A DNA stretch of 64,000 nucleotides from assembly GCA_015494465.1 (NCBI GenBank), contig WGBD01000008.1, positions 3,485 to 67,484 of the forward strand, read 5' to 3'. Positions 28,689 to 41,717 of this stretch are shown here, piece after piece (within the stretch, counting starts at the first letter, position 1; each line of letters starts with the position of its first letter). Made by a program: the position numbers and the translations under genes. Source of the stretch: Candidatus Omnitrophota bacterium (GTDB lineage: Bacteria > Omnitrophota > Gorgyraeia > S143-82). The notes beneath the pieces were generated by a model that was not told where the DNA came from, made no database searches, and saw only the letters and a program-made list of their open reading frames with translations.

Positions 28689-29408
28689 ATGAAGTACATA
28701 TTCTTGAGAGACGACGATGTATTCTCATTCCAAGAGCCATCCTTCAGGTGGTTTTGGAAAATAGCGGAATCTATGGATATACCTGTAATGTACGCGGTTA
28801 TCCCCGGCAAACTGGACGAGGACACCGCAAAAGTATTACTAGATAAAAAACGAGCCTCCCCGTCTAAGATCGACATAGCACAGCACGGTTACATGCACAT
28901 AAATCACAACCCGGATATATACCCAAAGTATGAGTTCGGTCCTTCGAGAAGCAAGGGTGCACAAAAAAGAGACCTTCTCGAAGGAATGAAGATAATGGAG
29001 CTTTCCTTTGGGCCTGACCTACCCCGTATATTCGTTCCTCCTTTCGACGGTTTTGACATAGTGACCTTAGAAGTGGCAGAAGAGCTGGGGATAGAGATCT
29101 TTTCTGCGGACAGTTACATCATAGGACAGAAATACAAATTTTTAAATCTACCCTACAGATTCGCAATAAACGACTACGCAGAAGATGGGACCCCGATCCC
29201 GGTTAGTTTTGAAACCATGTTGAAGAGGTACAGGCTCTACTACCTCTCAAATTACAAAGTAATTGGCATACTCCTCCACCACCAAGCATATCAAGATCCA
29301 TCTTCAAGAAGGGATCTGGCCTTATTTCTGAAATTCCTCGTGAAGGAAGAAACCAAAGGAGCAATCAAACTAATAACCGCCTCAAAGCTTCTCCAGTATA
29401 AGAGATAG
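28689..29408 (+). CDS. DUF2334 / polysaccharide-deacetylase-like family protein
   Basis: N-terminal FLRDDDV and QHGYMH motifs are characteristic of the DUF2334 deacetylase-like fold. Confidence 0.55.
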   Translation: MKYIFLRDDDVFSFQEPSFRWFWKIAESMDIPVMYAVIPGKLDEDTAKVLLDKKRASPSKIDIAQHGYMHINHNPDIYPKYEFGPSRSKGAQKRDLLEGMKIMELSFGPDLPRIFVPPFDGFDIVTLEVAEELGIEIFSADSYIIGQKYKFLNLPYRFAINDYAEDGTPIPVSFETMLKRYRLYYLSNYKVIGILLHHQAYQDPSSRRDLALFLKFLVKEETKGAIKLITASKLLQYKR

Positions 29409-30533
29409 CATCTTCTCGGCTCCCTTTAACTCAATCGAAGGGAATTCCCTCTGGTCTAAGTTCTTTAACTTTTCCATAAATCCTATTATCCTTGGCAGAA
29501 GTTCCTCCTCCTTGACAAAGATGAACACATTTGGGGCGGTATGGGTCAAAAACTCTGCCCGCACCCTCTGTTCGTTCAGACCAGGATAGGCATCGGTCCC
29601 CTCGAAAGGAACGAATACAGCAGGTACTCGATGCTTTATAATCTTCACAGCAGTGTTGTAAGAGGAAGTACAAATCGCCACTTTGGCCTTCCCTAAAAGC
29701 CCATCTATATCCCGAGCGTAAGGTATTACAACCACATTATCCGGGGCTTTTATATCACCCACATCCATCCTACTCGCAGGCCCTAACACAACTACAAACT
29801 TCTCTTGAGGCAACACCCTTGCTACCCCTATCGTGGCCCTCACGAGGCGGTCCATCACTATGCCCGATCCTCTCAACAGTAGGACATAGTCTTGACACGC
29901 AATATCCGTACGCCCACCTTGCTTGAAGGGCAAAGGCTCAGCGTCGATGTACCCAGTTAGGGAATACTTGCCGACGAACTCCTTTAGGAGAGTTCCCAAC
30001 AGAGGATTCTTCCTCATCCAAAACCTCAATTCCTCCTTCGAACAATGGAAAAACACATGGTCGACTACATCCATCCCCTTTTTTACTCTCTCCAGGTGCC
30101 TGTAATTCAGGATGGGGTAGCCCACACTGGAAAACACCTTAATCCCTCTTTTCCTAAGGGCCTTTGCCAATGCCATCATCTCTTTGAATATCTGGAATCT
30201 GCCGAAAGGGAAATACTCGAGGATGACGAAAGCATCGTCTTTAACGCGATCGAACAACCACCTGACCCTGCTGAGATCCACCAACTCCTTAGAGTAGGAA
30301 GGATCAAAAAAGGTCCTTTCTCCAAACACGGGGTAAGGCGAGAATAAAATAGGAAGATTAAGTGCGGTATAATCCAGGTACTCCTGAGCGGGAGATAAAC
30401 TAACTATCCTCAACCCTGCCCTGCTCGCGATAGCAAAAACCCTGGATGTATGGCCAAGACAGCCATAATGAGAAAAGACTATACTACCTTGACGGGCGCC
30501 TTTCAGATTGAGACGACTTTTATTCTCCCACAT
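29382..30533 (-). CDS. Putative GT-B fold glycosyltransferase, paralog 1
   Basis: A glycine/His N-terminal motif (GCLGHTSR) like GT1/GT28 donor-binding N-termini and a Rossmann-like C-terminal half. It is a paralog of 34597..35763, sharing the EYFP(F/L)G motif. Confidence 0.5.
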   Translation of the reverse strand: MWENKSRLNLKGARQGSIVFSHYGCLGHTSRVFAIASRAGLRIVSLSPAQEYLDYTALNLPILFSPYPVFGERTFFDPSYSKELVDLSRVRWLFDRVKDDAFVILEYFPFGRFQIFKEMMALAKALRKRGIKVFSSVGYPILNYRHLERVKKGMDVVDHVFFHCSKEELRFWMRKNPLLGTLLKEFVGKYSLTGYIDAEPLPFKQGGRTDIACQDYVLLLRGSGIVMDRLVRATIGVARVLPQEKFVVVLGPASRMDVGDIKAPDNVVVIPYARDIDGLLGKAKVAICTSSYNTAVKIIKHRVPAVFVPFEGTDAYPGLNEQRVRAEFLTHTAPNVFIFVKEEELLPRIIGFMEKLKNLDQREFPSIELKGAEKMLSLILEKL

Positions 30534-30536
30534 AGA

Positions 30537-31481
30537 TCATACAAAATTCCACCACTGCAAATAGCCGTGATAGGCCAGACACTTGGGGCAATCTCCCGCG
30601 TTAGCCCTTTTTATGACCGAAAAAAGTTTGTCTTCGTCTATTCCCGACACTATGTTTCCAACCGGCTCCATGTACAAACAAGGGAAGATGCTCCCATCGA
30701 CGGTGACGAAGAAACTGCAGGCGGGAGTGCGACAGGTAGTTATGAAGTCCATGTTCTCAGATTCCAGATAGCTGATAATGGGCTCCAGATAGGTAGAATA
30801 GATGAGATAATCAGATTCGCCGTACAAGTCCCTGTATTCCTTAGCTATTTCTTTCAAACTAGATCTGATCAGCCCAAAATCAGGCAGGAGTTCCTTTATG
30901 TCTATTGAATAGTTCCTGTGGTAATAGGAAGGCACCCTCTCAACCACCTTGAAGTACACTGGAATTTTCAGAGCTTTTCCAAGTTGCCAAACCCTGTGTA
31001 TCTGATGTTGATTAATTGAGGTGATCACCATCTTTAGGCTTAATGACATCCCCGGAGCCACCCTCCTCACAAACCTCACATTGTCTATCAGACTGCGGAA
31101 GGCACCATTATAACCGCGTTGCACATCGTGATACTTGCCTATACCATCTAGACTAAAGGTCATTTCCAGCCACCTAGCGTAGGGAGCAAACTTCACGACT
31201 AACTCTCGTATCTCCGGGCAAGTCCCATTCGAGGATATGTGTATACCCGTTATCTCATTCCTGAGCGCCCTTTTGAGGCAGTATTTGAGCAACCTGTAAA
31301 GATCTTCGTAAAGGAAAGGTTCACCACCCGTTATGGAAATGGAAAAGTTTTCGTACTTATCGAGAAAGGAGGTTATTCGACCGTAATCGATAGATGCAGG
31401 ACTCCTCCACAAAGAACACATCTTACACCTTAAATTGCATCTACTAGTTACCTCAAGCGTTATGTTAGAAACAGATCCCAT
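30537..31481 (-). CDS. Radical SAM enzyme with a C-terminal Cys cluster (SPASM/twitch-like)
   Basis: N-terminal CNLRCKMC (CxxxCxxC), the glycine motif SITGGEPF, and a C-terminal CRTPAC...C...CPKC cluster. Confidence 0.8.
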   Translation of the reverse strand: MGSVSNITLEVTSRCNLRCKMCSLWRSPASIDYGRITSFLDKYENFSISITGGEPFLYEDLYRLLKYCLKRALRNEITGIHISSNGTCPEIRELVVKFAPYARWLEMTFSLDGIGKYHDVQRGYNGAFRSLIDNVRFVRRVAPGMSLSLKMVITSINQHQIHRVWQLGKALKIPVYFKVVERVPSYYHRNYSIDIKELLPDFGLIRSSLKEIAKEYRDLYGESDYLIYSTYLEPIISYLESENMDFITTCRTPACSFFVTVDGSIFPCLYMEPVGNIVSGIDEDKLFSVIKRANAGDCPKCLAYHGYLQWWNFV

Positions 31482-31488
31482 ATCTCGA

Positions 31489-32439
31489 TTACACCAGAAA
31501 TTCCTCTAAATCCAGATCGACTGCGGTTATGAACTCCACATCTGAAATCCTCTCGGGAAAACTCATAACCCTGGAAGCCTTGCTTACGATAAAACCGTTA
31601 GCTATAAAAAGATCGACATAGGGTGCAGAGACGAGTACGCTAATCTTGTCAACTTTGGGATAGAATATCCCAATACCATCCAACAAGACAGACAGAGTCC
31701 AATCCGTTATCTCACCTGCAAAGTGCCAATCGATCAAATAAGCCGTGTCGTGGGAGTAACAGTCCTGCCTGATCAACAGACTCCCTATGTGTTTGTGGTC
31801 ATAAAAAACCTTAACGGCCCTATAGAAATCCCTAACTGGTTCCCTGTTAATCCTCTTCTCCCAAATACCACGCGACTTGTAAAAACGCCTAGGAGCAAAT
31901 GCGAGAAGCGAATCTACATATTCGCCAATGCCTATCTCCGTAACATCTATACGCCGATCCCGGGATCCTCTCGAGATCTTACCGTCTAATACATATACCC
32001 TACTGCACTCCTTCCAATTCATCTTGAAGTAAATCCTTTCCATATTATAATTGGGAACCGTGAGAAAGACATACTTCTTTGAAAGCAAATCCAAGTCCCT
32101 TCTGTATTCTAATAATCCTTTGGTTGCCATAACCTTGGCATTGTCCTTCTCTCCTTTGGTCCGAATGAAGTCAACACACCAGGCCAACTTTTTCTGCCCA
32201 CAAAGTTCGTTGGACAACAGAACAGCGCCAAATACTACGCACCCTGCTTCATCCCAATACAGATAAGTCTTGGTCTTATCCCCAAGGGAATACTTCCACT
32301 TGGCAACATCGACGAACTCTTTAGAACAGATAAAGTTTCGGGAAATAACTTCTTCTTGCTCCTGTAGATAAATTAGGCGGGACCAGTCGAGATCAAGGTT
32401 CTCCCTAAAACCTATAGAGGCCTCTTCACTCCAAAACAT
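31489..32439 (-). CDS. Hypothetical protein (316 aa) within the tailoring cluster
   Basis: Long ORF with island-like composition, tightly spaced between the rSAM and aminotransferase genes. No recognised motif. Confidence 0.5.
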   Translation of the reverse strand: MFWSEEASIGFRENLDLDWSRLIYLQEQEEVISRNFICSKEFVDVAKWKYSLGDKTKTYLYWDEAGCVVFGAVLLSNELCGQKKLAWCVDFIRTKGEKDNAKVMATKGLLEYRRDLDLLSKKYVFLTVPNYNMERIYFKMNWKECSRVYVLDGKISRGSRDRRIDVTEIGIGEYVDSLLAFAPRRFYKSRGIWEKRINREPVRDFYRAVKVFYDHKHIGSLLIRQDCYSHDTAYLIDWHFAGEITDWTLSVLLDGIGIFYPKVDKISVLVSAPYVDLFIANGFIVSKASRVMSFPERISDVEFITAVDLDLEEFLV

Positions 32440-32448
32440 AGCCCCTTT

Positions 32449-33555
32449 CTAATCCCCTTCCACGGAAGCTAGGGTTTCCACGACATACTTTATCTCATCT
32501 TCTTTGATAAAAGAAAAGAGCGGTAGATGGACGATCCTTTTACGATAGACTTCGGAATGTTCGCACTTGCCAAGAGAATACCTTGCAAATACCTTCCTCT
32601 CGTGTAAGGGCACATAGGGCCTGAGGGCATATACCCCCTTCGCTTCCAGTTTCGACAAAACATCATCGGAATCCGACACGAATACCGGGAAATTCTGCAA
32701 CACGACGAATTCCTCTTCGCGTTCTTTTAAGTAATCGATGTGGTAGTCGTCGCACAACTTCTCATACAGTCTTTTAGCGCTCCTACGGGATTTTATTATG
32801 TGGTTTATGTACCTGAACTTCACATTAATCGATACATAGTCCATCAAGTACATGGATGCAAATCTCTTGTTAAGACCTGTCAATCCGTAGTCGTCTCTCC
32901 AGATCTGGGTATAATCTCTTATCCTATTAAACCTCTCGTCGTCAAAGCAGATCATCCCACCTCCACCCCCGCAAGAAGAAATGGGCTTATAGTAGGAAAA
33001 GGAAAAACACGCGATGTCGAAAAAGGAACCCAAGTAGCGGTCTTTATACTTAGAACTCTCGGCCTGGCACACATCTTCTATAATAGCTACACCATACTTC
33101 TCCTTTATTCGCCTTATGCCTTCAATATCTGCCGGGAAGCCGAACATGTGAGGCACGATAATGGCCTTTATAGTTTCCCCATACTCATTGACTGCCTTTT
33201 CTATTTCTTGGAGGGATATAGAAAATCTCTCCGGCTCTACATCGACGATCACGGGCTCCGCTCCGGAATACAACACTGCGTAGCCTACTGCGGAATATGT
33301 GACGGAAGGCACGATGACCCTATCTCCCTTTCCTATACCTAGGGCGTAAAGGGACAGTTGAAGGGCATCGGTCCCGGAGTTTACCGCCACTGCAAACTTC
33401 CTTCCGATGTAACCCGCAAACCTTGCTTCGAACTCTTTTAACAATGTTTCTATGTCCGATAAACCATTCACACATGACAAAACTCGAGATAATTCCTCAG
33501 CATACTTAGATGCCAGAGACTTGTCCACCCTCATGGATTCATACCTAACCTTCAT
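32449..33555 (-). CDS. DegT/DnrJ/EryC1/StrS-family PLP-dependent sugar aminotransferase. The start is revised to the ATG at 33555, which overlaps the upstream rSAM stop as ATGA.
   Basis: AVAVNSGTDALQLSL, the spacing of Asp/Lys, and overall length match DegT-family aminotransferases. The 29-codon extension in the ORF track overlaps the upstream gene. Confidence 0.8.
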   Translation of the reverse strand: MKVRYESMRVDKSLASKYAEELSRVLSCVNGLSDIETLLKEFEARFAGYIGRKFAVAVNSGTDALQLSLYALGIGKGDRVIVPSVTYSAVGYAVLYSGAEPVIVDVEPERFSISLQEIEKAVNEYGETIKAIIVPHMFGFPADIEGIRRIKEKYGVAIIEDVCQAESSKYKDRYLGSFFDIACFSFSYYKPISSCGGGGGMICFDDERFNRIRDYTQIWRDDYGLTGLNKRFASMYLMDYVSINVKFRYINHIIKSRRSAKRLYEKLCDDYHIDYLKEREEEFVVLQNFPVFVSDSDDVLSKLEAKGVYALRPYVPLHERKVFARYSLGKCEHSEVYRKRIVHLPLFSFIKEDEIKYVVETLASVEGD

Positions 33556-34607
33556 ATATTCCCCTTCCGGAGCTCTAACCCGGGGATCTTCCTCTCGATC
33601 TTCACGATCTGCTCGGTCAGATGCCGATAGGCCTGAAACCAATTATTGTGATCTCGATCCATATACCTTATAGCCAACCCAGCATTGAAATTACTAAACT
33701 CCCTGTAGGACGCAGTGGGATTCTTCTTGAAAAAGTCCAATAACTTCCTTAAGTAGTCTATCACCACCCGTTGATTGATGACAATTCCATCGTCTTTTAT
33801 GTGGAAGAGAGTAAATTTATCCCGAATATTCTCTGGGAACGACAACAAGGTCCAATTGGGGAGGACTTTCCCATTAGGCTGAATCACCAGATCCATCCCA
33901 TATCCCATAGAAAGAGAATACATTTTTCCTATGAAGCCCTCTCCTCTGATACGCCTATATCTAGTCTTAAGCTCCCATGTCAACAAACGCTTGTAGCGTT
34001 CCAGAAATTTTCGCGCGCTCTCACTATCCCACGGAGCCAAAAAGGCCGGGTGCACTTCTATGTCGTAAAAGCCCAACCTTATCAATTCGAAAAAATTATC
34101 TTCCATAAAATCAACCTCATCTGGATGCACGGTCATCGTGGGATTTATGTCAACACCGCGATTGATGAGCTCGGCGACATTCCTTACATATACATCATAG
34201 GTAGCACCCGTTATCCCTAGCCGATGTCTTTGGTTTGAAGGCAATTCCCCGTCCAAGCCTGGCTCCACGGATATCCTGTTCTCCAAAACAAACCTAATGT
34301 GATCCTCCTGCCAATAGTACATGTTACTCTGAATGCTACAATCCCTATACGGAAATAACCCAAACACTCTATTGAATATGTACTTAACCTTATCCCAGAC
34401 GATTAAGGGCTCTCCTCCGGAGACAACGACATTGTGCCTTTTCATTCTCGGTAGTGCGGACAACAAAGTATCTATCTGGGCATAACTTAATTCCGTGGAA
34501 TTGGTCCTATACCTGAAGAAACAATAATCGCAATTCAGATTGCATTTATCCGTGACGAAAATCCAGAGATTTTTAAGAGGGACTTCTGCAAGTATCTTAG
34601 TTACCAT
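33552..34607 (-). CDS. Radical SAM enzyme (no obvious SPASM cluster)
   Basis: N-terminal FVTDKCNLNCDYCFF (CxxxCxxC) and VVSGGEPL; 351 aa. Confidence 0.8.
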   Translation of the reverse strand: MVTKILAEVPLKNLWIFVTDKCNLNCDYCFFRYRTNSTELSYAQIDTLLSALPRMKRHNVVVSGGEPLIVWDKVKYIFNRVFGLFPYRDCSIQSNMYYWQEDHIRFVLENRISVEPGLDGELPSNQRHRLGITGATYDVYVRNVAELINRGVDINPTMTVHPDEVDFMEDNFFELIRLGFYDIEVHPAFLAPWDSESARKFLERYKRLLTWELKTRYRRIRGEGFIGKMYSLSMGYGMDLVIQPNGKVLPNWTLLSFPENIRDKFTLFHIKDDGIVINQRVVIDYLRKLLDFFKKNPTASYREFSNFNAGLAIRYMDRDHNNWFQAYRHLTEQIVKIERKIPGLELRKGNI

Positions 34608-35763
34608 CAGTTACATCATTTAGTATTTCCCTTAAAAACACGGACTCTCCCTTAAAGTCCTCTTCTCTCAAGCAATGCGTTGGGGTTTCATCGCCCAACT
34701 CCCTTATCCATCCCGCTACCGTATTAACGGGCATCCTAGGACCTTCTATGACTCGAGCCGGAATAAACCTGCCTACGACAGAGGCCCTTGCTAATTGTTC
34801 CACGGCATCTAACGGGTATATAACGGTAGGCTTACGCCAATAAATCAATTTGGTGATAGTGTTATAGCCCGCCATGTTAATACTTAGTCTACACTTGCTT
34901 AACAAAAAGTTAAACTTCTCAAGCGGAAGAGATTCGTAAATCGTAACATTATCCGGTGCAACTTTGCGGACCTCCTCTACGAGATCATCCCTAGAAGAAG
35001 GCCCCAACACGAGAACGAACCTATCGTTTGGCATCCTCTTCGCCAAGACGATGGCCAAGGATATGATCCTATCGTTTATCACACCACCTCCCCGTGAAAC
35101 CATAACAAAATCCTTAGGGATGTCGAGAGGGGAAGTCTTTGTGTCTATGACGAAACCGGTGTACACGATCCTATCGCGATACCTATCCAGAATAGCCAAG
35201 AGGTCCTGCACCCCTCTAGAGATCTCGGCCATTTCCCGTAGATAGAGCCTTAAAAAGTCCTCCGTACTATGTATGAAAATTTTATCGTAGTACCTGCCTA
35301 TTATAGCATCTGCGCCTCTTACATGGCTCACATATCCACAAGAGCAATATATCCTCCTCACCTTAGGGCGTATCGCCTCCAGCACCGTGTAAAGCTCCTC
35401 CGTCCAAAAGGCGTCACCCAAGGGGAAGTATTCGGTAATGAAGACATCCGGAGAAAAGCTCTCTATCTCGGAGAGGATAACCGATATCCTCTCGCTCATG
35501 GCCTTCCTACCCCAAGGGCTGGACAAAACTTTAGAATGAAGGGGATCAAACCTGTCCACAAACATACCTTTTTTTGCGTACGAATGCGGTAATAAGATCA
35601 CTTTCCCCAATCTGCCAAAATCCAACAACCGCTGTCTCTTACCTCCTTGAAGGATCAGCAATTCGACATCCAAATTGGCCTTTAGGTAGGATAGTAAATT
35701 ATAGGTTCTCAGACTGTGGCCGAAGCTATTATAATGATTGTAATACAAACATATCTTAATCAT
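34597..35763 (-). CDS. Putative GT-B fold glycosyltransferase, paralog 2
   Basis: NSFGHSLRTYNLLS and EYFPLGDAF parallel GCLGHTSRVFAIAS and EYFPFGRFQ in 29382..30533. Confidence 0.5.
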   Translation of the reverse strand: MIKICLYYNHYNSFGHSLRTYNLLSYLKANLDVELLILQGGKRQRLLDFGRLGKVILLPHSYAKKGMFVDRFDPLHSKVLSSPWGRKAMSERISVILSEIESFSPDVFITEYFPLGDAFWTEELYTVLEAIRPKVRRIYCSCGYVSHVRGADAIIGRYYDKIFIHSTEDFLRLYLREMAEISRGVQDLLAILDRYRDRIVYTGFVIDTKTSPLDIPKDFVMVSRGGGVINDRIISLAIVLAKRMPNDRFVLVLGPSSRDDLVEEVRKVAPDNVTIYESLPLEKFNFLLSKCRLSINMAGYNTITKLIYWRKPTVIYPLDAVEQLARASVVGRFIPARVIEGPRMPVNTVAGWIRELGDETPTHCLREEDFKGESVFLREILNDVTDGN

Positions 35764-35780
35764 ACAGACCGATCGACATC

Positions 35781-36620
35781 ATGAATATTTACATTATTCT
35801 AAACCTCGCGATTGCCTTGTTCTTCTCTAGAACCGACTTATTATACAAAAGGATACCAAACATTCCCATTGCTATCGTCATTTTAATGGGCACGGGTCTC
35901 AATGCATATCTATTTCCAAACCGCATTCACATGATGATCCTAAATACGCTCCTTGCGACAGCCATAGCCTTCATCCTATTCTGGTTCGACATCTGGAAAG
36001 CAGGTGACGGTAAACTCCTTATTGCATTTACGGCTTTGACACCACCTTTTTTTATCGCCAACATAATTCCCCCACCTATTATCCTGACTTCCTTAGCTTT
36101 TGTACTAGGGCTAGGGGTATCCCTTCCGCCGATGGCCTTCTCTCTTTGGAAGACAGTGAGGAAAGATCCTCCAAAGATAATGGAAATAGCCTCTGATCTG
36201 GCGGAAAAGATAGCGATAGCCATTAGCACGATATGGATCATCCGGATATTTCTAAGGAACACCGTGAAGAACAACATGATCATGTACCTCCTAGCCTATG
36301 CTATAATCTCTAGCCTAAAAACGAATTGGCTTTCTAGACAAAATAAAACCTTGGTCCGAGGGATAACGGTGCTGGGATTGACAGGTCTGCTCGTGGCCTC
36401 CCGCTACCTTAGATACTTCGATGTGAAGTCCTATCTATTGATTACCACGGTCTACATCTCCATCTATTCCGCAATCGACTTGCTTTTAAAACACATTCCT
36501 GAGGAAGCAGCCAAAAAGCGCATACCTCTGGCCCCATTGATGGCCTGTGCTCAGATGCTAATAATATCAGCGCCTCCTCAGACAATGCAGTACATCTTTC
36601 GGATGCTACGGATAATATGA
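35781..36620 (+). CDS. A24-family aspartic peptidase (prepilin/preflagellin peptidase-like, TadV/CpaA type)
   Basis: Polytopic membrane protein with both catalytic Asp contexts: TDLLYKRIPN (first Asp plus the RIPN motif) and WKAGDGKLLIAF (the GxGDxKL motif). Confidence 0.7.
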   Translation: MNIYIILNLAIALFFSRTDLLYKRIPNIPIAIVILMGTGLNAYLFPNRIHMMILNTLLATAIAFILFWFDIWKAGDGKLLIAFTALTPPFFIANIIPPPIILTSLAFVLGLGVSLPPMAFSLWKTVRKDPPKIMEIASDLAEKIAIAISTIWIIRIFLRNTVKNNMIMYLLAYAIISSLKTNWLSRQNKTLVRGITVLGLTGLLVASRYLRYFDVKSYLLITTVYISIYSAIDLLLKHIPEEAAKKRIPLAPLMACAQMLIISAPPQTMQYIFRMLRII

Positions 36621-37819
36621 GAAGATCCCCGCCAATAACATCCATTAAGATAGACAAGATATCTCCCTATCAGTTAAAGAAACTCAAGAACATAATCCAG
36701 AATAGGCACCCCTTTCCACTACTGATATACAATGTCCCTTACTGTCTATTCCCAAAAGTGCCCCACTGGATAGTGGCTGAATACGACGACGGAGACAAAA
36801 CAGAACAGTGTCAACGATGCGCCTGGAACTTACTCTGTCCTGGCTTTCCTTTTGACAGAGTAAGATCTACTACGCCAACCCCCATTGAGGACAAACCAAA
36901 TGAGGTGGTCATAGAGATATGTGGAAAGTGCCAACTATCGTGTGAATTCTGTAGATTTAGCAACAGCTCAACTGTAATAATAGAAACCTCCCAGATCTTT
37001 TCCATAATAGACGAGGCCCATATGATGGGGGTATCAACCATAAGGTTGACCGGGGGAGAACCCCTGCTCCACCCGGAAATCGACATAATCGTAGGCTACA
37101 TCGAAGAAAAGGGTATGAATTGCATCGTAAATACGAACGGATTATCGAGAAGGATCGTTGAACTTGCCAAACGGCATAATAACTTACAAAATGTATTGGT
37201 TTCTATACAATATAAAGACCTGTTCAACAAAAAACTCATCATCCAAAAGTTAAACAATCTAGCCCTACTAAAGGCCCATACAGCTATCGTAAGGATCGGA
37301 ACCGTAATACCACAACGAGTGAACTATCGGCAATTCGTTTTTCGGATGGCAAAGGTCATATACAAATTGCCTGTATTCCTGTGGGAGTTGTACAGGCCAT
37401 TCTCTCCTGAATGTAGACCGATAACGATCGATAGGCAAGGCTGGGAATCCATAACTAAAGGAATAACCGAACTCAAAAAGAGAGGTTTTCCTCACAAACT
37501 GGGGATAGCCAACAGCGTTCCGTTCTGTTACATGGACGAGCTGTCCAAATTATTGCTGGGCAACTTTACCGACGATGGACATACTCGAATAGTCTTCTCA
37601 GCACAGTACGAAGAATTTATCCCGTCCTACTTCTCCAACTTACTACTTGGCAAGTCCCTGATGAAAGCGTGGGACAACCCTGTCCTTCGAGCAAGGAGAA
37701 ACCTGGGGTGTTTGCCCAAACAATGCGACAGCTGTACATTAAGAAATATCTGCAGAGGAGGGTCTTACTCTATGTGGCCCCAGGAAGACCCAATGATACC
37801 TAAAAATACCTCTTTTTAA
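36617..37819 (+). CDS. Radical SAM / SPASM-like enzyme with an N-terminal Cys-containing extension
   Basis: ICGKCQLSCEFC (CxxxCxxC) about 100 aa in, LTGGEPL, and a C-terminal CDSCTLRNICRGG cluster. Its start overlaps the A24 peptidase stop (ATGA). Confidence 0.8.
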   Translation: MRRSPPITSIKIDKISPYQLKKLKNIIQNRHPFPLLIYNVPYCLFPKVPHWIVAEYDDGDKTEQCQRCAWNLLCPGFPFDRVRSTTPTPIEDKPNEVVIEICGKCQLSCEFCRFSNSSTVIIETSQIFSIIDEAHMMGVSTIRLTGGEPLLHPEIDIIVGYIEEKGMNCIVNTNGLSRRIVELAKRHNNLQNVLVSIQYKDLFNKKLIIQKLNNLALLKAHTAIVRIGTVIPQRVNYRQFVFRMAKVIYKLPVFLWELYRPFSPECRPITIDRQGWESITKGITELKKRGFPHKLGIANSVPFCYMDELSKLLLGNFTDDGHTRIVFSAQYEEFIPSYFSNLLLGKSLMKAWDNPVLRARRNLGCLPKQCDSCTLRNICRGGSYSMWPQEDPMIPKNTSF

Positions 37820-38489
37820 ACTCGAGATAATCTCTATACCCAAAGGTGGTTACGGCGGAATAAAAGTAGCTTAATCCAGAAAGTTCCTTGGCCTTGCCTC
37901 TTCCCGATAACACCTTGCCCAACAATCGAAAGGCCTTTTCCATGTATTCCTTGGCCTTACAACCGCAGTAATCCAAGGTCAAGAATTGGAGGATGTACAC
38001 CGCAAGCAAGTCCCTCTCTGTATACGGCAATAACCCTTCTACCCCACTTTTGTAATATTGATACAAGTAGAAAAACAATTTCAGATCTTCCTCTGTAGCT
38101 ACTCGATCTTCCATAAGCTCGTCTTCGATGAGGTAAGAAAAGGACATAAATTTTTCCAAGTCGTTCCCGGTCAAAGCATCGCACAAGGACCTAAATTCGC
38201 GATTAGTGAGACCACCGCAGGCATCAGAAGAGACCGCCTGGATAAAACTAACCATATCAGAAGGAATCTCGTCATAATAGGCAAGGATAAAACCTGCCTT
38301 ACCCAACGCCAAGGCCCGGGGAGCCAGCATCACCTCAACATAGTCAACGACATCTTCCTTTCCAGCATAAGGGACGACTGAATCCTTTACATATGCCAAT
38401 AACTCGTCCAATCTAAGAGGGATATCCGCAGAGAAGGCGTAACCACCAATACCTAGGGTACAGAGCAAGATAACAAGCCACTTCATCAT
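37800..38489 (-). CDS. Secreted hypothetical protein (signal peptide MMKWLVILLCTLGIGGYAFSA). The start is revised to the ATG at 38489, behind a strong AGGGGAAGGGG Shine-Dalgarno sequence.
   Basis: Signal peptide followed by 200 aa with no recognised motif. It lies 10 nt downstream of precursor peptide 2. Confidence 0.55.
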   Translation of the reverse strand: MMKWLVILLCTLGIGGYAFSADIPLRLDELLAYVKDSVVPYAGKEDVVDYVEVMLAPRALALGKAGFILAYYDEIPSDMVSFIQAVSSDACGGLTNREFRSLCDALTGNDLEKFMSFSYLIEDELMEDRVATEEDLKLFFYLYQYYKSGVEGLLPYTERDLLAVYILQFLTLDYCGCKAKEYMEKAFRLLGKVLSGRGKAKELSGLSYFYSAVTTFGYRDYLEFKKRYF

Positions 38490-38499
38490 CCCCTTCCCC

Positions 38500-38835
38500 T
38501 TAGTAACAATGGGCATTGTGCGTGGTCAACCTGTTCTCATTGTGGTGAGATACCTTACAAGAGGCCTGCGTCGGCAACTCGTTCACATGAGACAAGTGAT
38601 AATTACCGTTTATGTGACGCGGGTGCTCTTTGGTTATAAGGCATCCGCTCTTTCCTAGATGCTCCGGGACGGTTCCATTGAAATGGGAAGTGTGACTACA
38701 AGAAGCATACCCTAGCTCGGCGATAGCTGACAAAAACCCCGAACACAAAATCCCGGCCTTTACGATCTCGTCCCGCCTCACAAAACCGGATTCGTCCGCT
38801 AAGAAGTCGTACAACTTACGAGTTATCCTGTTCAT
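38500..38835 (-). CDS. Precursor-like peptide 2 (111 aa): Flp-prepilin-like leader MNRITRKLYDFLADESG plus a His/Ser/Cys/Asn-rich C-terminal region ending ...NAHCY
   Basis: A perfect AGGAGG Shine-Dalgarno 3 nt upstream. It is a paralog of the upstream peptide, sharing DFLxDESGFVxRDxxVxxGI. The C-terminal half (SCSHTSHFNGT...HPRHINGNYHLSHVNE...SCKVSHHNENRLTTHNAHCY) is low-complexity and metal-ligand-rich. Confidence 0.6.
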   Translation of the reverse strand: MNRITRKLYDFLADESGFVRRDEIVKAGILCSGFLSAIAELGYASCSHTSHFNGTVPEHLGKSGCLITKEHPRHINGNYHLSHVNELPTQASCKVSHHNENRLTTHNAHCY

Positions 38836-38844
38836 ACCCCTCCT

Positions 38845-39090
38845 TCAGTAAGTACAGTACGAACTATGGGTAACATTCTTGTTCACATGATGCCAACTAC
38901 ATCCAGCCATTCCACTGGTGTGAACCGAACCATGGCTGGAGGTGTGGTTACAATGAGCTGAGGCCTCCAGGGTAGAAACCAATGACACCGCGGAAAGGAT
39001 GGCCATACCTTTTATTCCCGACCTAACCAGCGAATCCCGGGAAACAAAACCAGATTCGTCCATCAAAAAATCGCCTATCTTCTTTATCAC
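38845..39090 (-). CDS. Precursor-like peptide 1 (81 aa, GTG start): leader (M)IKKIGDFLMDESG plus core ...AHCNHTSSHGSVHTSGMAGCSWHHVNKNVTHSSYCTY containing His-Xaa-Ser triplets
   Basis: The GTG start at 39090 overlaps the TGA stop of the rSAM/SPASM gene (GTGA), with an AAGGA upstream. The 134-aa version in the ORF track would overlap the rSAM gene. The leader aligns with peptide 2. The core has HTS/HGS/HTS/HSS repeats and 4 Cys. Confidence 0.6.
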   Translation of the reverse strand: MIKKIGDFLMDESGFVSRDSLVRSGIKGMAILSAVSLVSTLEASAHCNHTSSHGSVHTSGMAGCSWHHVNKNVTHSSYCTY

Positions 39091-40454
39091 CCTATCCTTT
39101 GCATTCCCCACGCCTGAAGCTCCTCCTCGTACTCTTCGTAAAGACAAAAGAACAAGCGTATAACCGCGTTGTGGAATTCCAACATCGAAGAATGGCCAAG
39201 TATAGAGCCCGTCTCCTGGTAGGTGTACACAGGGCAGGTCCCCGTCCACGCTATAAAGGGATTACTTGGATCCACGATGTCCAGACAACTCGCAGTGGCC
39301 ATCCCTATAACGGTATCGTGGGCCAAGACATCTTTGTAGTCGTCTTTTAAGACATTACCGATGCGGAACATATCCCTATCTTCGAGCATCCTAGCCTCGT
39401 CGCAGGTGTAAACATCTCCGTTAGGCATGTAAGCAAGGACATTCCTCCCCGCACCACACGGACAACACATGTCCACATAACTGGGATCGGAATAATACAA
39501 TATCTTTTGGGCGACATTGGACATCATCCTCTCTTTAATTGTAATTCCCGACCTGTTCAGATTCAACATATATCTCACAGCTTTCTCGTAGACGCTCATA
39601 AATTCATCCAGAGAATAACCTATTTTCTGCCATGTCTCCGGATCCACATTGATCTTACTAAGGGGTCTAAAGGCTATAGTCTTGATGCCCATATCCACAT
39701 AAGAGTCTATTATCTCCTTCCAATACTTAAGGCTTTCCCTGCTTATGGTCGTGATCAACGAAACAGAAGCCGACCGTCTTTGCAATAGATCAATTGCCTT
39801 CCGCACTACATCGTGGGTAGGCCTTCCGTCGACATAACGGCGATTGAAGTCGTGGACCTGACTTGGCCCATCGTAAGACACGCAAATCCCAACGCCTTTT
39901 TCTTTCAAGAAATCCACCTTCTCTTCGTCAAGCAGAGAACCATTGGTCACCAAAGATATCTCCAGATCCTTCGTTCCGTTATTCCACTCCCTTGCCTTTT
40001 CAACCATAAACTTTAGGGTCTCCCAATTCAAAAGAGGCTCGCCTCCTTGAAATTCCAAGGAGACGCTGTACCTTCTACTATCAAACAAAAACTTCAAGAT
40101 GTGGGCAGCCACCTCCAAACCCATTCTCCTTTTTTCATTACTCCTAGCCTGGCAATACACACAATCGAAATTACATTCCGTGGTAAGGACCGCGATGTGA
40201 AGACCAACATCCGAAAAGAGATGGCTATTCAACGACCTGAAACGGCCCGTTATGTCGTCCAAATTAGCCTCTGAAATGACGATCCCTCGTCTTTCCAATT
40301 TCTCTAGCAGAAAGGGATCTAACTGATCGATGTCTCCCAATCGAAACTGAGAGATGTCATCTAAGAGGGTCCATCCCCCAAACCTATTAGAGATCAAGTA
40401 CTTACCCGTCTTCTCAAAGTATTGCACATAAAAAGGCAGAAATACCCGTTTCAT
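39087..40454 (-). CDS. Radical SAM/SPASM-domain peptide-maturase-like enzyme with an N-terminal RRE-like (PqqD-like) extension
   Basis: About 90 aa precede TECNFDCVYCQ (CxxxCxxC). The glycine motif is EFQGGEPLL. The C-terminal Cys-rich region (MCCPCGAGRN...YTCDEA...ASCLD...CPVYTY) is SPASM-like. The gene is translationally coupled to the precursor peptide. Confidence 0.8.
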   Translation of the reverse strand: MKRVFLPFYVQYFEKTGKYLISNRFGGWTLLDDISQFRLGDIDQLDPFLLEKLERRGIVISEANLDDITGRFRSLNSHLFSDVGLHIAVLTTECNFDCVYCQARSNEKRRMGLEVAAHILKFLFDSRRYSVSLEFQGGEPLLNWETLKFMVEKAREWNNGTKDLEISLVTNGSLLDEEKVDFLKEKGVGICVSYDGPSQVHDFNRRYVDGRPTHDVVRKAIDLLQRRSASVSLITTISRESLKYWKEIIDSYVDMGIKTIAFRPLSKINVDPETWQKIGYSLDEFMSVYEKAVRYMLNLNRSGITIKERMMSNVAQKILYYSDPSYVDMCCPCGAGRNVLAYMPNGDVYTCDEARMLEDRDMFRIGNVLKDDYKDVLAHDTVIGMATASCLDIVDPSNPFIAWTGTCPVYTYQETGSILGHSSMLEFHNAVIRLFFCLYEEYEEELQAWGMQRIG

Positions 40455-40666
40455 CGGTTAAAATCCCTACTGACAATTAACAACTCCATCAAGGCCTCTT
40501 CTATATCGTCGCCTTGAAACTGCACTTCCCACCTATTGCCATACGGCTTTATCGAAACCAGATTGTACCTGTTCAACACCTCGGAAGGCATCTTATCCAA
40601 GGGATAAACGCTCCTGGATAGAAACACGCGAGCATCTCCGTTTAGCAAGGGCAGGGTATCACTCAT
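40451..40666 (-). CDS. Small protein (71 aa) coupled (ATGA) to the rSAM/SPASM gene; a possible stand-alone peptide-binding (PqqD/RRE-like) or accessory protein
   Basis: ORF in tight operon context (overlaps on both sides). No motif was confidently recognised. Confidence 0.4.
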   Translation of the reverse strand: MSDTLPLLNGDARVFLSRSVYPLDKMPSEVLNRYNLVSIKPYGNRWEVQFQGDDIEEALMELLIVSRDFNR

Positions 40667-41033
40667 CCTCTGCTTCTAACTCTTTTATGAGCTCTTCTAT
40701 CTCCTTTTCTTCCGCTTCCTGAATAAATTTCGGAGACGAAGAGAACAGCGCCCGCTGTATGATCAACTTAGCTACTTCATTATTCTCCTTCAGCGAGGCA
40801 AAGTATCTCTCGTAATTTATAAGCTGGTTACCAAATTCCAGCTCGATGTCATCTATAGAAGCACCTCCCTTTGACTTCACATAAGCAATGTAATACTTTT
40901 CATCTTCGTCTATCACGATGTATGCCTTGCCCAAGAATGTATACGCTGCGTTGTAGATGGCCTGCAGGGAATAGAGGTTCTTATTGATCTTTATGGCCTT
41001 CCACCCCCCTTTATAAACAGCCATTCCTACCAC
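40659..41033 (-). CDS. Small acidic-tailed protein (124 aa), possibly an HxsD-like accessory protein
   Basis: Operon position directly upstream of the rSAM cassette. An internal ...QLINYERYFASLKE... segment loosely resembles the LLNDYxLRE signature recalled for HxsD. The C-terminal poly-Glu tail is EEKEIEELIKELEAEDE. Confidence 0.4.
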   Translation of the reverse strand: MVGMAVYKGGWKAIKINKNLYSLQAIYNAAYTFLGKAYIVIDEDEKYYIAYVKSKGGASIDDIELEFGNQLINYERYFASLKENNEVAKLIIQRALFSSSPKFIQEAEEKEIEELIKELEAEDE

Positions 41034-41549
41034 CTACCCTCCACAATAATATATCCTTCCATTGACCCTTAGGTCGTGATCAACCGTGAGGTTGTTCTCC
41101 ACTCGCAGATTCCCTTTAACTCTATCCTGAATCGTCAATGTATTCACCTGCAAATGACCTGCTACCGTACCATTACCTGTGACCTCCAAGTTACCGGTAA
41201 CTGTGACCTTGCCATTCGAAGGATCAATAGTTACCGCAGCCCTAGCAGGGTCACCTATGACGACCTTGCCCGTTGCTGTTATGTACAAAGAGCCATCGGT
41301 TGGATCGAAGGTTACCCTGGCTACATTTGAAGTGATATCCTTAAAAAATATCTCTTTCTGCAAAACAATAACCCCGTCCTCAAGGGCTTCACCCATGAGA
41401 CTGCTCCCCACCGAGAGCTTATAAGTCCTCAACTCTTCGTACTCGCCGTAAGGGGACGGATAATAGACGGAAATGGTTTTATGGCTCTCTGACCACCCAA
41501 AGACAGGGATCACCAAGGATAAAAGCAGCAACAAAAATGTATTCTTCAT
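41034..41549 (-). CDS. Secreted protein (171 aa) with a conserved VYYPSPYGEYEELR N-terminal module and bactofilin-like beta-helix repeats
   Basis: The signal peptide is MKNTFLLLLLSLVIPVFGW. The module is shared with 55831..57393. Repeats (GNLEVTGNGTVAGHLQVNTLTIQDRVKGNLRVENNLTVDHDLRVNG) resemble bactofilin/beta-helix repeats. It is the first gene of the rSAM operon. Confidence 0.55.
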   Translation of the reverse strand: MKNTFLLLLLSLVIPVFGWSESHKTISVYYPSPYGEYEELRTYKLSVGSSLMGEALEDGVIVLQKEIFFKDITSNVARVTFDPTDGSLYITATGKVVIGDPARAAVTIDPSNGKVTVTGNLEVTGNGTVAGHLQVNTLTIQDRVKGNLRVENNLTVDHDLRVNGRIYYCGG

Positions 41550-41717
41550 GGTTTATCCTAACTTCTTCCAACCACATCAAATATTAACACGCAAGCGTCA
41601 ATCAGGTCAAGGACTGCACGACATTGAGACCAGCGATTCAGCACACACCATTGCAAAAAATTGGCCACTGGGCAAGATTAGAAGGATCGCTCGCAGAGAC
41701 GAAACCCGTTCTCGCGC

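What the first reader, a model, noticed from the sequence alone, without database searches (positions are those of the whole stretch)
38500..39090. Two tandem precursor-like peptides pairing a Flp-prepilin-type leader (FLxDESG) with His/Ser/Cys-rich cores
Both small ORFs begin with a 14-17 aa basic leader ending ...DFL(M/A)DESG. In length and sequence this mirrors the class-III signal peptide of Flp/Tad prepilins (compare ...FLKDESG|ATAIEYGLI).
- After the Gly there is no hydrophobic pilin N-domain. Instead there is a shared FV(S/R)RD..V..GI segment and then a low-complexity region rich in His, Ser, Thr, Asn and Cys. Peptide 1 contains HTS/HGS/HTS/HSS triplets and 4 Cys and ends CTY. Peptide 2 ends HCY.
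- Peptide 2 has a perfect AGGAGG ribosome-binding site. Peptide 1 is coupled by GTGA to the RRE-containing rSAM/SPASM gene.
- This composition is what one expects of a RiPP precursor (ranthipeptide/sactipeptide-like or His-Xaa-Ser-system-like). Fusion to a prepilin-type leader is, as far as I know, undescribed.
Basis: partly seen in the sequence, partly recalled or inferred. Interest (0 to 1): 0.9.

Follow-up and report, generated by a model that had tools for sequence, protein, structure and literature searches.

The report
HxS peptide precursors with peptidase-linked leader
Two small genes encode divergent members of a large, catalogued but unstudied family of His-Xaa-Ser repeat peptides; their conserved N-terminal "FLxxExG" tag almost always sits beside a prepilin-type membrane protease gene, which suggests, without proving, that this protease trims a radical-SAM-modified peptide.

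Summary
The two ORFs are real genes on the minus strand (38845-39111 and 38500-38835). They are divergent members of the NCBIfam HxsA3/HxsA4 clade, so this is a variant of the His-Xaa-Ser (HXS) system, whose canonical form was shown in 2026 to be an anti-phage defence. HxsB-like and HxsD-like genes lie directly upstream; HxsC is absent.

The leader is not chance. In 120 homologues, E(-3) and G(-1) of F-L-x-x-E-x-G are invariant and F(-7) is 98% conserved, in the same register as two annotated Flp prepilins (RFLKDESG|ATAIEY).

An A24 peptidase gene (FlaK-like fold, both catalytic Asp conserved) lies in the cluster in 16 of 17 informative loci from archaea and bacteria. Canonical HxsA has neither the tag nor the peptidase.

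The peptides are not Flp pilins. Eleven polar residues follow the Gly, then a short signal-peptide-like hydrophobic stretch with an AxA-like end. No Flp model matches and there are no pilus assembly genes.

The family is catalogued, but I found no paper linking it to an A24 peptidase. Cleavage, its site and the modification are all untested. I rate it a new variant of a known kind, interest about 0.6.

The parts
38845..39111 (-). Peptide 1: the short HxsA3/A4-like precursor. It is 88 aa from GTG 39111, or 81 aa from GTG 39090. The leader is ...RVIKKIGDFLMDESG, followed by a signal-like segment and a His/Ser/Cys core that ends YCTY.
   Evidence: Its only NCBIfam hit is HxsA3, at 25.1 bits. It is 51% identical to P0111 in the syntenic locus L003. 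The start-codon argument rests.
38500..38835 (-). Peptide 2: the long HxsA3/A4-like precursor (111 aa). The leader is MNRITRKLYDFLADESG and the core ends AHCY. AGGAGG lies at 38844-38839.
   Evidence: HxsA3 scores 18.5 bits. The same short-plus-long peptide pair is present in L003, and P0083 is a further long-form relative.
39087..40454 (-). HxsB-like radical SAM/SPASM maturase (455 aa).
   Evidence: TIGR03978 HxsB scores 315.9 bits, E 4e-94, against a cutoff of 370. Radical_SAM, Fer4_12 and SPASM domains are present. It is about 30% identical to annotated hxsB genes and 38% identical to the Methanosarcinales homologue. The closest solved structure is CteB, 5wgg.
40451..40666 (-). Small 71-aa protein weakly related to HxsD. 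It lies between the HxsD-like and HxsB-like genes in every related locus.
   Evidence: Custom HMM scan; it has no Pfam or NCBIfam hit.
40659..41033 (-). HxsD-like protein (124 aa).
   Evidence: TIGR03976 HxsD scores 47.7 bits against a cutoff of 50. Homologues in related loci carry Pfam PF27806 HxsD.
41034..41549 (-). Secreted 171-aa protein with a bactofilin-like repeat and an N-terminal ISVYYPSPYGEY motif. It is the first gene of the minus-strand operon.
   Evidence: Pfam Bactofilin, 34.4 bits. The motif is shared with the gene upstream of HxsD in the bacterial loci L003 and L004. A promoter-like site lies at 41610-41581.
37800..38516 (-). Conserved 238-aa protein with a signal peptide or membrane anchor (Cys-rich in its relatives). 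It follows the peptide gene or genes in many of the loci that extend that far.
   Evidence: Custom HMM scan; no Pfam or NCBIfam hit.
35781..36620 (+). A24-family (GxGD) aspartic membrane peptidase, FlaK-like (279 aa). It is the proposed leader peptidase.
36617..37819 (+). Second radical SAM protein (400 aa). Its start overlaps the A24 gene in an ATGA. It is a candidate functional counterpart of HxsC, but it is not HxsC.
   Evidence: Pfam Radical_SAM; HxsC is not among its 25 best NCBIfam hits. It has an orthologue in L003 (46% identity) and relatives just downstream of the peptide in archaeal loci L012, L013, L017, L018 and L030.
28689..35763 (.). Remainder of the low-GC island. It holds DUF2334, a 383-aa protein, a 314-aa rSAM, a 316-aa protein, a DegT aminotransferase, a 351-aa rSAM and a 388-aa protein.
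   Evidence: The GC content drops here. The gene order resembles L003, and both rSAM genes have orthologues there.

Best explanation
The two ORFs encode precursors of the HxsA3/HxsA4 branch of the His-Xaa-Ser (HXS) family.

Each precursor has four parts:
1. A basic amphipathic N-terminal extension that ends in the invariant F-L-x-x-E-x-G.
2. A signal-peptide-like segment: a polar K/R-rich stretch, a short hydrophobic stretch and an A/S-rich end.
3. A His/Ser(/Cys)-rich core.
4. An aromatic C-terminus.

Shown here: the peptides sit in a conserved operon of HxsD-like, small HxsD-related, HxsB-like rSAM/SPASM, peptide(s) and a secreted partner protein. A FlaK-like A24 aspartic membrane peptidase gene belongs to the same cluster, coupled here to a second rSAM gene.

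Inferred mechanism:
- In the cytoplasm the HxsB-like enzyme, helped by the two HxsD-like proteins and probably the accessory rSAM enzymes, modifies the His/Ser/Cys core.
- The precursor is targeted to the membrane by its signal-like segment.
- The dedicated A24 peptidase, whose active site faces the cytoplasm, removes the N-terminal extension. It cuts either after the invariant Gly (the Flp-like site ...DESG|F) or after the second small residue at +11, which lies at the start of the hydrophobic stretch.
- The processed, modified His-rich peptide ends up outside the cytoplasmic membrane.

Its final role is unknown. By analogy with canonical HXS it could be an envelope-located defence effector.
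For: Family assignment:
- HxsA3 is the only NCBIfam hit for both peptides. HxsB is the best hit for the rSAM gene at E 4e-94, and HxsD scores 47.7 against a cutoff of 50.
- All 114 homologues tested match HxsA3, and 98 match HxsA4.

Leader conservation:
- E(-3) and G(-1) are 100% conserved, F(-7) 98%, K(+4) 91%, and G or A at +11 95% (120 sequences).
- 124 of 130 further 50%-identity representatives keep the motif.

Flp comparison:
- Two annotated Flp pilins read RFLKDESG|ATAIEYGLI, the same register.

A24 peptidase:
- Pfam A24 is matched by 4 of 5 family members and Arc_PepC by 3 of 5.
- Both catalytic Asp are invariant.

Association:
- The A24 gene lies directly upstream of HxsD in 12 distinct loci, is adjacent or nearby in 2 more, and lies 2-3 kb away in the window and in L003. 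It is absent only in L004.
- Canonical HXS operons (D-B-C-A) have plain Sec signal peptides on HxsA, with neither the FLxxExG tag nor an A24 gene. The tag therefore tracks the peptidase rather than HxsB or HxsD.

Structure prediction:
- An AF2 model of peptide 1 puts D-E-S-G in a loop between two helices (mean pLDDT only 66.6).

Published background:
- Canonical HxsA undergoes N-terminal processing that is not plain signal-peptide removal, and the protease responsible was not identified (PMC13128918).
Against: - There is no experimental evidence of cleavage or modification for any member of this branch.
- The class III signal-peptide definition requires 20-25 hydrophobic residues directly after the Gly (PMC10191384). 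Here 11 polar residues intervene. The hydrophobic stretch is short: 11-13 residues in the window peptides. Their best 19-residue hydropathy is 1.37 and 1.56, against 1.94-2.08 for Flp.
- Three representatives carry Trp in place of the "invariant" Gly.
- The Omnitrophota locus L004 keeps the motif but has no A24 gene between about 7 kb upstream of its HxsD-like gene and 10 kb downstream of the peptide.
- The amphipathic leader could equally be a binding site for the maturase or a chaperone.
- The A24 enzyme might process another protein.
- The window peptides score well below the NCBIfam cutoffs and have few HxS triplets (4 and 2; the family median is 5).
Confidence: 0.55

Rival explanations
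1. The conserved FLxxExG extension is a recognition sequence, like a RiPP leader. It would be bound by the N-terminal domain of the HxsB-like maturase or by the HxsD-like or small proteins, not cut by A24. The leader and signal segment would be removed by signal peptidase I or another protease. The A24 homologue would serve another substrate or have a non-proteolytic role.
For: - The leader has amphipathic-helix periodicity, with hydrophobic residues at -14, -10, -7, -6, +2, +7 and +8, and is predicted to be helical.
- The small HxsD-related protein is, like A24, specific to this branch, so it is an equally good correlate of the tag.
- An AxA-like end follows the hydrophobic stretch, which suits signal peptidase I.
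- L004 has the motif without a neighbouring A24 gene.
- Three members carry Trp in place of the Gly.
Against: - It does not explain why an A24 gene with both catalytic Asp intact is kept next to HxsD from Methanosarcinales and DPANN archaea through to bacteria.
- No other cluster protein has a consistent small-residue site next to a hydrophobic stretch (sequences).
- An invariant Gly in a predicted loop is more typical of a cleavage site than of a helix-binding motif.
Confidence: 0.3
2. The peptides are true pilin-like subunits, a new Flp-like class. After A24 cleavage they would be assembled into a filament or surface layer that displays His-rich tails.
For: - The leader register is Flp-like.
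- An A24 peptidase gene is in the cluster.
- The segment after the Gly is predicted to be helical.
- A T2SSF gene lies about 6.5 kb upstream in one archaeal locus, L005.
Against: - No TadA/PilB-type ATPase or platform gene is present in the window island or in most related loci.
- The hydrophobic stretch is too short and is set back from the Gly.
- 0 of 114 members match Flp_Fap.
- The core is predicted to be disordered.
- Clear homology links these peptides to HxsA proteins that carry ordinary signal peptides.
Confidence: 0.05
3. The N-terminal region is a Tat-type or other long Sec-type signal peptide, and the resemblance to Flp leaders is coincidental.
For: - Positions +3 to +9 (S-K-x-x-L-I-K) have the spacing of the Tat motif S-R-R-x-F-L-K (Tat consensus from my own knowledge). 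A hydrophobic stretch and an AxA-like end follow.
- The canonical HxsA model aligns to this part of a family member.
- By my estimate (from rough residue frequencies, not a tool result) a match to F-[LIMV]-x-x-E-x-G in a 25-residue N-terminus arises by chance at about 1e-3 per protein, so convergence is possible.
Against: - The twin Arg is absent: position +5 is E, D or Q in 61% and K in 23% of members. In peptide 2 the RR is out of register.
- This reading explains neither the invariant E-x-G nor the linked A24 gene.
Confidence: 0.1

Closest known systems
Canonical HXS anti-phage system (HxsD-HxsB-HxsC-HxsA; Li et al., Nat Commun 2026, PMC13128918; NCBIfam TIGR03976-03979)
   Same: - It has an HxsB-type rSAM/SPASM enzyme, an HxsD-type small protein, and a substrate with His-Xaa-Ser repeats behind an export signal.
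- The substrate undergoes N-terminal processing that depends on the system.
   Different: - There is no HxsC here. The best rSAM in the island scores 48 bits against a cutoff of 268, while the Aeromonas control scores 396.
- The substrates are 88-111 aa peptides without a peptidoglycan-binding domain, and their HxS repeats are few and degenerate.
- They carry an extra roughly 20-aa FLxxExG extension.
- The cluster adds an A24 peptidase, a second HxsD-like small protein, a secreted partner protein and several further rSAM genes.
- The named members of this branch come from DPANN archaea, Methanosarcinales and Omnitrophota rather than Pseudomonadota.
NCBIfam HxsA3 (NF038309) and HxsA4 (NF038313), with HxsC4 (NF038332)
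   Same: The models cover the same peptide family, leader included. All 114 homologues match HxsA3 and 98 match HxsA4. One homologue, from Omnitrophota, is named HxsA4 by NCBI.
   Different: - The window peptides fall well below the curated cutoffs (25.1 and 18.5 bits against 65). They belong to a divergent Cys-containing bacterial subclade with P0111 and P0083.
- I found no published description of these models' biology or of the A24 link.
Flp/Tad (type IVc) prepilins and their TadV/CpaA peptidases; archaeal class III signal peptides cut by FlaK, PibD and EppA
   Same: - The leader is short, basic and hydrophilic and ends in an invariant Gly.
- F(-7), L(-6) and E(-3) match the two annotated Flp leaders read here (RFLKDESG).
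- A dedicated A24 aspartic peptidase lacking a methyltransferase domain is encoded nearby.
   Different: - No hydrophobic alpha-1 helix follows the Gly directly, and there is no G-XXXX-EY motif.
- No member matches Flp_Fap.
- No assembly ATPase or platform genes are present.
- The rest of the peptide is a disordered His/Ser-rich core that appears to be a substrate for rSAM enzymes.
rSAM/SPASM-modified RiPPs (SCIFF/ranthipeptides with PapB or CteB; sactipeptides)
   Same: - A small precursor is encoded next to an rSAM/SPASM maturase. CteB is the closest solved structure to the HxsB-like enzyme.
- The window subclade has Cys residues in the core.
   Different: - PapB (139 bits against a cutoff of 340) and SCIFF (119 against 425) maturase models score far below HxsB.
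- 75 of the 239 family members have no Cys at all, so thioether formation cannot be the family-wide chemistry.

Membership tests
Canonical HXS system | HxsB rSAM/SPASM maturase (TIGR03978) | tested here: inconclusive
   HxsB is by far the best hit (315.9 bits, E 4e-94), but the score is below the equivalog cutoff of 370. The protein is about 30% identical to annotated hxsB genes.
Canonical HXS system | HxsC, a second rSAM enzyme next to HxsB (TIGR03977) | tested here: not met
   The island's other rSAM proteins score at most 48.1 and 36.3 bits for HxsC, and HxsC is not among the 25 best hits of the 400-aa rSAM; the cutoff is 267.9. The Aeromonas HxsC control scores 395.9.
Canonical HXS system | HxsD (TIGR03976 / PF27806) | tested here: inconclusive
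   It scores 47.7 bits against a cutoff of 50. Homologues in related loci carry PF27806.
Canonical HXS system | HxsA: Sec signal peptide, tandem HxS repeats and a peptidoglycan-binding domain (TIGR03979) | tested here: not met
   The window peptides do not match TIGR03979. They have 4 and 2 HxS triplets and no C-terminal domain. Compare Aeromonas HxsA.
Canonical HXS system | Protects against phage by blocking DNA entry | not testable with these tools
   This needs phage or virus challenge of an expressing host.
NCBIfam HxsA3 / HxsA4 | Score above the curated cutoff (65 for HxsA3, 55 for HxsA4) | tested here: not met
   The peptides score 25.1 and 18.5 bits for HxsA3 over nearly their full length, and it is their only hit. 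The wider homologue set matches HxsA3 in 114 of 114 cases at E<=0.01.
NCBIfam HxsA3 / HxsA4 | Shared N-terminal K-rich F-L-x-x-E-x-G-x-[IV]-[ST]-[KR] leader followed by a hydrophobic stretch | tested here: met
   Both window peptides fit the anchored profile built from 120 members.
Class III signal peptide / Flp prepilin | Hydrophilic leader ending in Gly or Ala | tested here: met
   G(-1) is 100% conserved in 120 sequences. In a further 130 representatives it is replaced by Ala once and by Trp three times. The definition is taken from PMC10191384.
Class III signal peptide / Flp prepilin | 20-25 mainly hydrophobic residues directly after the cleavage Gly, often with Glu at +5 (Flp: G-XXXX-EY) | tested here: not met
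   Positions +1 to +11 are K-I-S-K-x-x-L-I-K-x-G. The hydrophobic run starts at about +12 and is 11-13 residues long in the window peptides. There is no EY.
Class III signal peptide / Flp prepilin | Matches Pfam Flp_Fap (PF04964) | tested here: not met
   0 of 114 members match at E<=10. The window peptides have no Pfam hit.
Class III signal peptide / Flp prepilin | Dedicated A24 peptidase encoded with the substrate | tested here: met
   Window gene 35781-36620. An A24 gene is present in 16 of 17 informative loci.
Class III signal peptide / Flp prepilin | Assembly ATPase and platform genes (TadA, TadB/C or PilB, PilC) | tested here: not met
   None was found among the island genes scanned with Pfam and NCBIfam.
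Class III signal peptide / Flp prepilin | Actual cleavage after the Gly by the peptidase | not testable with these tools
   This needs co-expression followed by N-terminal sequencing or intact-mass measurement.
Peptidase A24 (for the gene at 35781-36620) | Pfam PF01478 above the gathering score | tested here: met
   It scores 26.9 bits against 26.5. Four of 5 family members match, and 3 of 5 also match Arc_PepC.
Peptidase A24 (for the gene at 35781-36620) | Two conserved catalytic Asp, the second in a GxGD-like motif | tested here: met
   D19 and D76 (in A-G-D-G-K-L) are invariant in alignments of 5 and 17 sequences.
Peptidase A24 (for the gene at 35781-36620) | FlaK-like fold | tested here: met
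Ranthipeptide / sactipeptide RiPP | PapB-, SCIFF- or sactisynthase-type maturase and a Cys-based core | tested here: not met
   PapB scores 139 against a cutoff of 340, SCIFF 119 against 425 and RumMC 63 against 720. 75 of 239 family members have no Cys.

The most novel reading that the evidence does not exclude
A prepilin-type (A24, FlaK-like) intramembrane aspartic peptidase acts as the dedicated leader peptidase of a radical-SAM-modified, non-pilin peptide family with more than 1000 sequence clusters. The family spans DPANN archaea, methanogens, Omnitrophota and other bacteria. If so, this is a class III-like secretion and maturation route for RiPP-like His-Xaa-Ser effectors. It would also supply the missing protease logic for the unexplained N-terminal processing step of HXS defence systems.
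Probability: 0.45. Interest if true: 0.75.

Novelty: new variant of a known kind. Interest (0 to 1): 0.6.

Why it matters
- Canonical HXS was only recently shown to be an anti-phage system. Its effector needs an unexplained, non-canonical N-terminal cleavage (PMC13128918).
- The branch found here encodes a candidate protease in the operon and marks its substrates with an invariant E-x-G tag. That turns the processing question into a simple co-expression experiment.
- It would extend the substrate range of A24 peptidases from pilin-like proteins to rSAM-modified peptides.
- It points to a large, unstudied peptide-maturation system in DPANN archaea and candidate-phylum bacteria. Some loci carry up to about ten rSAM genes.
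- In this window the system sits on a low-GC island in a bacterium, which suggests transfer between domains.

Tried and rejected
1. The 134-aa ORF reading. It overlaps the HxsB-like gene, and no homologue covers that part.
2. Flp pilin membership. There is no Flp_Fap hit and no hydrophobic stretch directly after the Gly.
3. Tat signal reading. The motif spacing fits, but the twin Arg is missing.
4. Ranthipeptide/sactipeptide reading. The maturase models score far below HxsB.
5. PADLOC. It gave only generic rSAM similarity to viperins; this 2023 library returned no HXS-specific match.
6. A single-peptide word-indexed search found only the query itself. A four-sequence profile was needed.
A 32-sequence subset worked.
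8. A sequence profile of the A24-like proteins against PDB sequences found nothing. The fold search was needed.
MurA, PTS enzyme I, DnaK and UvrA show only that it is a bacterium.
10. No tRNA genes or flanking direct repeats mark the island ends.
11. Literature searches for prepilin peptidase or A24 or class III signal peptide together with radical SAM found nothing relevant.
Full report
OBSERVATION

Both ORFs lie on the minus strand.
- Peptide 2 (38500-38835, 111 aa) begins MNRITRKLYDFLADESG and ends AHCY. An AGGAGG lies 3 nt before its ATG and overlaps the stop codon of peptide 1.
- Peptide 1 ends at 38845 with YCTY and contains ...KKIGDFLMDESG.
However, gene callers start the protein at GTG 39111 (88 aa, P0004). 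That start has GGAGGA 9 nt upstream, and the residues it adds (R at -15, V at -14) fit the family consensus. I take 39111 as the likelier start.
- Peptide 1 has 3 Cys, not 4.
- The 134-aa ORF is an artefact of the longest-ORF rule. Its N-terminus overlaps the rSAM gene, and no homologue covers it.

WHAT THE PEPTIDES ARE

NCBIfam gives a single hit for each peptide: HxsA3, at 25.1 and 18.5 bits, over almost the whole length. Both scores are well below the cutoff of 65. The neighbouring genes fit the same system.
- The rSAM/SPASM gene 39087-40454 matches HxsB at 315.9 bits (E 4e-94, cutoff 370).
- The gene 40659-41033 matches HxsD at 47.7 bits (cutoff 50).

A single-sequence search found only the query itself. 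The HxsB-like protein led to two Methanosarcinales loci with the same gene order. The peptides encoded beside it there have the same leader, for example MKIPRLKKKIRSFLTKEDGKISKEALLKTGILLSAAALASLNAAAD...HGSHGSHGSHNSW.

A four-sequence profile then found 220 homologues of 77-175 aa. A full HMMER scan of 1.84 billion representatives found 1178 clusters at E<=1e-3 and 450 at E<=1e-10. All 114 homologues tested match HxsA3, 98 match HxsA4 and 26 match canonical HxsA. None matches Pfam Flp_Fap. Source names place members in Woesearchaeota, Altiarchaeota, Diapherotrites, Aenigmarchaeota, Nanobdellota, Methanosarcinales and Omnitrophota.

The window peptides belong to a divergent bacterial subclade with P0111 and P0083. 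The syntenic locus L003 also has a short and a long peptide. Conserved positions in this subclade are xxC[SN]H[TS]S at the start of the core and C[TS]?Y at the end.

ANATOMY OF THE N-TERMINUS

I anchored 120 sequences on the Gly. The consensus is:

K-[IL]-K-K-K-I-x-[SA]-F-L-x-x-E-[DE]-G | K-I-S-K-x-x-L-I-K-x-G

- Conservation: E(-3) and G(-1) 100%, F(-7) 98%, I(+2) 90%, K(+4) 91%, G(+11) 85% (plus Ala 10%).
- Residues +12 to about +22 are hydrophobic, and an A/S-rich stretch follows.
- Of 130 further representatives, 124 keep the motif. The exceptions include one Gly-to-Ala and three Gly-to-Trp replacements.
- AF2 predicts a helix, then a loop containing D-E-S-G, then a second helix, then a disordered core. 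Mean pLDDT is only 66.6, so this is suggestive at best.

A hydrophobic segment is present, but it starts 11 residues later and is short: 11-13 residues in the window peptides. Their best 19-residue hydropathy is 1.37 and 1.56, against 1.94-2.08 for two annotated Flp pilins. It looks like the core of an ordinary signal peptide.

Canonical HxsA proteins (Aeromonas pAsa4, Calothrix) begin directly with such a signal peptide and have no FLxxExG extension. The canonical HxsA model aligns to a family member only from the hydrophobic stretch onward. The HxsA3/A4 branch is therefore canonical-type HxsA plus an N-terminal extension that ends about 11 residues before the hydrophobic stretch.

THE PEPTIDASE LINK

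The window gene 35781-36620 matches Pfam Peptidase_A24 just above threshold (26.9 against 26.5 bits). Further evidence that it is a real A24 peptidase:
- Homologues from related loci align with invariant D19, N27 and D76-x-K-L (in AGDGKL, a GxGD-like motif), plus a C-terminal [PA][FL]AP motif.
- Four of 5 match A24 and 3 of 5 match the archaeal A24 C-terminal domain.
- One database homologue is labelled CpaA by JGI.

I then scanned 36 fetched loci and the window with custom HMMs. The recurrent operon is A24, HxsD-like, small (~70 aa) HxsD-related, HxsB-like, peptide(s), often a secreted Cys-rich protein, and often several more rSAM genes.

Position of the A24 gene:
- Directly upstream of HxsD in 12 distinct loci.
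- Divergent but adjacent in L032.
- 1.9 kb upstream in L013.
- 2-3 kb beyond the peptides in the window and in L003.
- Absent only in L004 (Omnitrophota), among loci with enough flank to judge.
- L009 ends 1.2 kb upstream of HxsD and shows no A24 gene in the sequence available.

Canonical HXS operons have no A24 gene. The FLxxExG extension and the A24 gene therefore appear together and are absent together, while HxsB and HxsD are common to both branches.

Two annotated Flp pilins read M(T/N)KLF(T/A)RFLKDESG|ATAIEYGLI. They have F(-7), L(-6), E(-3) and G(-1) in the same register as the family.

WHAT IT IS NOT

A review defines the class III signal peptide as a hydrophilic leader ending in Gly or Ala, followed by 20-25 mainly hydrophobic residues, often with Glu at +5. 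The peptidase cuts at the cytoplasmic face of the membrane (PMC10191384).
- The first feature is met. The second is not met at the invariant Gly.
- If the cut were after the small residue at +11, the following uncharged run has a family median of 18 residues, and the hydrophobic stretch is only 11-13 residues in the window peptides.
- There is no G-XXXX-EY motif, no Flp_Fap hit, and no assembly ATPase or platform gene in the island.
- HxsC is absent. The best score is 48 bits against a cutoff of 268, and the control scores 396.
- PapB and SCIFF maturase models score far below HxsB. 75 of 239 family members have no Cys. Thioether formation therefore cannot be the family-wide chemistry.

MECHANISM

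Shown: family membership, the conserved tag, the conserved cluster, and an A24 homologue that looks catalytically intact.

Inferred:
- The core is modified in the cytoplasm by the HxsB-like enzyme with the two HxsD-like proteins, and probably by accessory rSAM enzymes. The 400-aa rSAM overlaps the A24 gene and has relatives just downstream of the peptide in archaeal loci.
- The signal-like segment takes the precursor to the membrane.
- The A24 peptidase removes the extension, after G(-1) or after the residue at +11.
- The processed peptide is exported.

Published work on canonical HXS shows that HxsA undergoes system-dependent N-terminal processing that is not plain signal-peptide removal, acquires a +8 Da modification on SHRSS, and acts in the periplasm (PMC13128918). 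The protease responsible was not identified. The branch described here may make that step explicit.

The main rival is that the tag is a binding site for the maturase or a chaperone and that A24 does something else. The small HxsD-related protein is an equally branch-specific correlate, and three members carry Trp at the Gly position.

CONTEXT

The host is a bacterium: it encodes MurA, PTS enzyme I, DnaK and UvrA. The cluster lies on a low-GC island of 44-47% GC against 55-58% in the flanks, at roughly 28.6-41.6 kb between dapA and uvrA. No tRNA genes or flanking repeats mark its ends. The island's gene order resembles L003, which sits in a different flanking context. The archaeal flavour of the peptidase and of most relatives suggests transfer from archaea.

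NOVELTY

The peptide family is catalogued as NCBIfam HxsA3/A4, and the canonical system is characterised. I found no paper that links an A24 or prepilin peptidase, or class III signal peptides, to rSAM precursor peptides or to Hxs proteins. The library searched does not cover most subscription journals.

Verdict: a new variant of a known kind, interest about 0.6.

Noticed in passing
P0174, P0195, P0180 (family members; sequences): Some family members carry what looks like a Hint/intein-like domain (CFPxGT...FFADGFLVHN) inserted between the HxS repeats and a short C-terminal tail that resembles the normal peptide end (...GCGWHGSGW...GGPCSW). P0180 appears to have two such domains. This would be an intein or BIL-type autoprocessing domain inside an rSAM peptide precursor. 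I read this from the sequences only and ran no domain search.
   Followed up: no
window 41034-41549 (-); L003 7658-8095; L004 6525-7115: The gene upstream of HxsD in the three bacterial loci encodes a secreted protein. Just after its signal peptide it has a shared motif I[ST]xYYPSP[YF]GxYxxL. The window copy also matches Pfam Bactofilin. Its function is unknown.
   Followed up: partly
window 28600-41600: A low-GC island (44-47% GC against 55-58%) lies between dapA (27517-28392) and uvrA (41718-44534). It carries the whole cluster, including four rSAM genes, a DegT aminotransferase and DUF2334. No tRNA gene or direct repeats mark its borders.
   Followed up: partly
family-wide, positions +3 to +9 after the invariant Gly (window peptide 1, FVSRDSLVRSG): The segment S-K-[EKQD]-x-L-I-K has the spacing of the Tat motif S-R-R-x-F-L-K (Tat consensus recalled from my own knowledge) but lacks the twin arginine. 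It precedes a hydrophobic stretch and an AxA-like end. It could be a degenerate or repurposed Tat-like signal.
   Followed up: partly
L004 10257-20297; L005 11247-20327; L009 1965-15354: Related loci in Omnitrophota and archaea carry seven to eleven radical SAM genes next to the core operon, some fused to methyltransferase or B12-binding domains. This implies very heavy modification of a peptide of about 100 aa, or several products.
   Followed up: no
window 37800-38516 (-) and its counterparts (for example L001 9634-10401, L004 9231-9971): A protein of 220-280 aa with an N-terminal signal peptide or membrane anchor, often Cys-rich, follows the peptide gene in many of the loci that extend that far. 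It has no Pfam or NCBIfam hit.
   Followed up: partly
window 44515-48561 (-): A 1348-aa ORF next to uvrA has only weak CofD-like and PMM-like Pfam matches. It appears unrelated to the finding.
   Followed up: no
window 802-2292 (-): An AmmeMemoRadiSam system A/B fusion protein is encoded near the start of the window. A Memo/AMMECR1 fusion also lies near the HxsA4 cluster in L004. This is probably coincidental.
   Followed up: no
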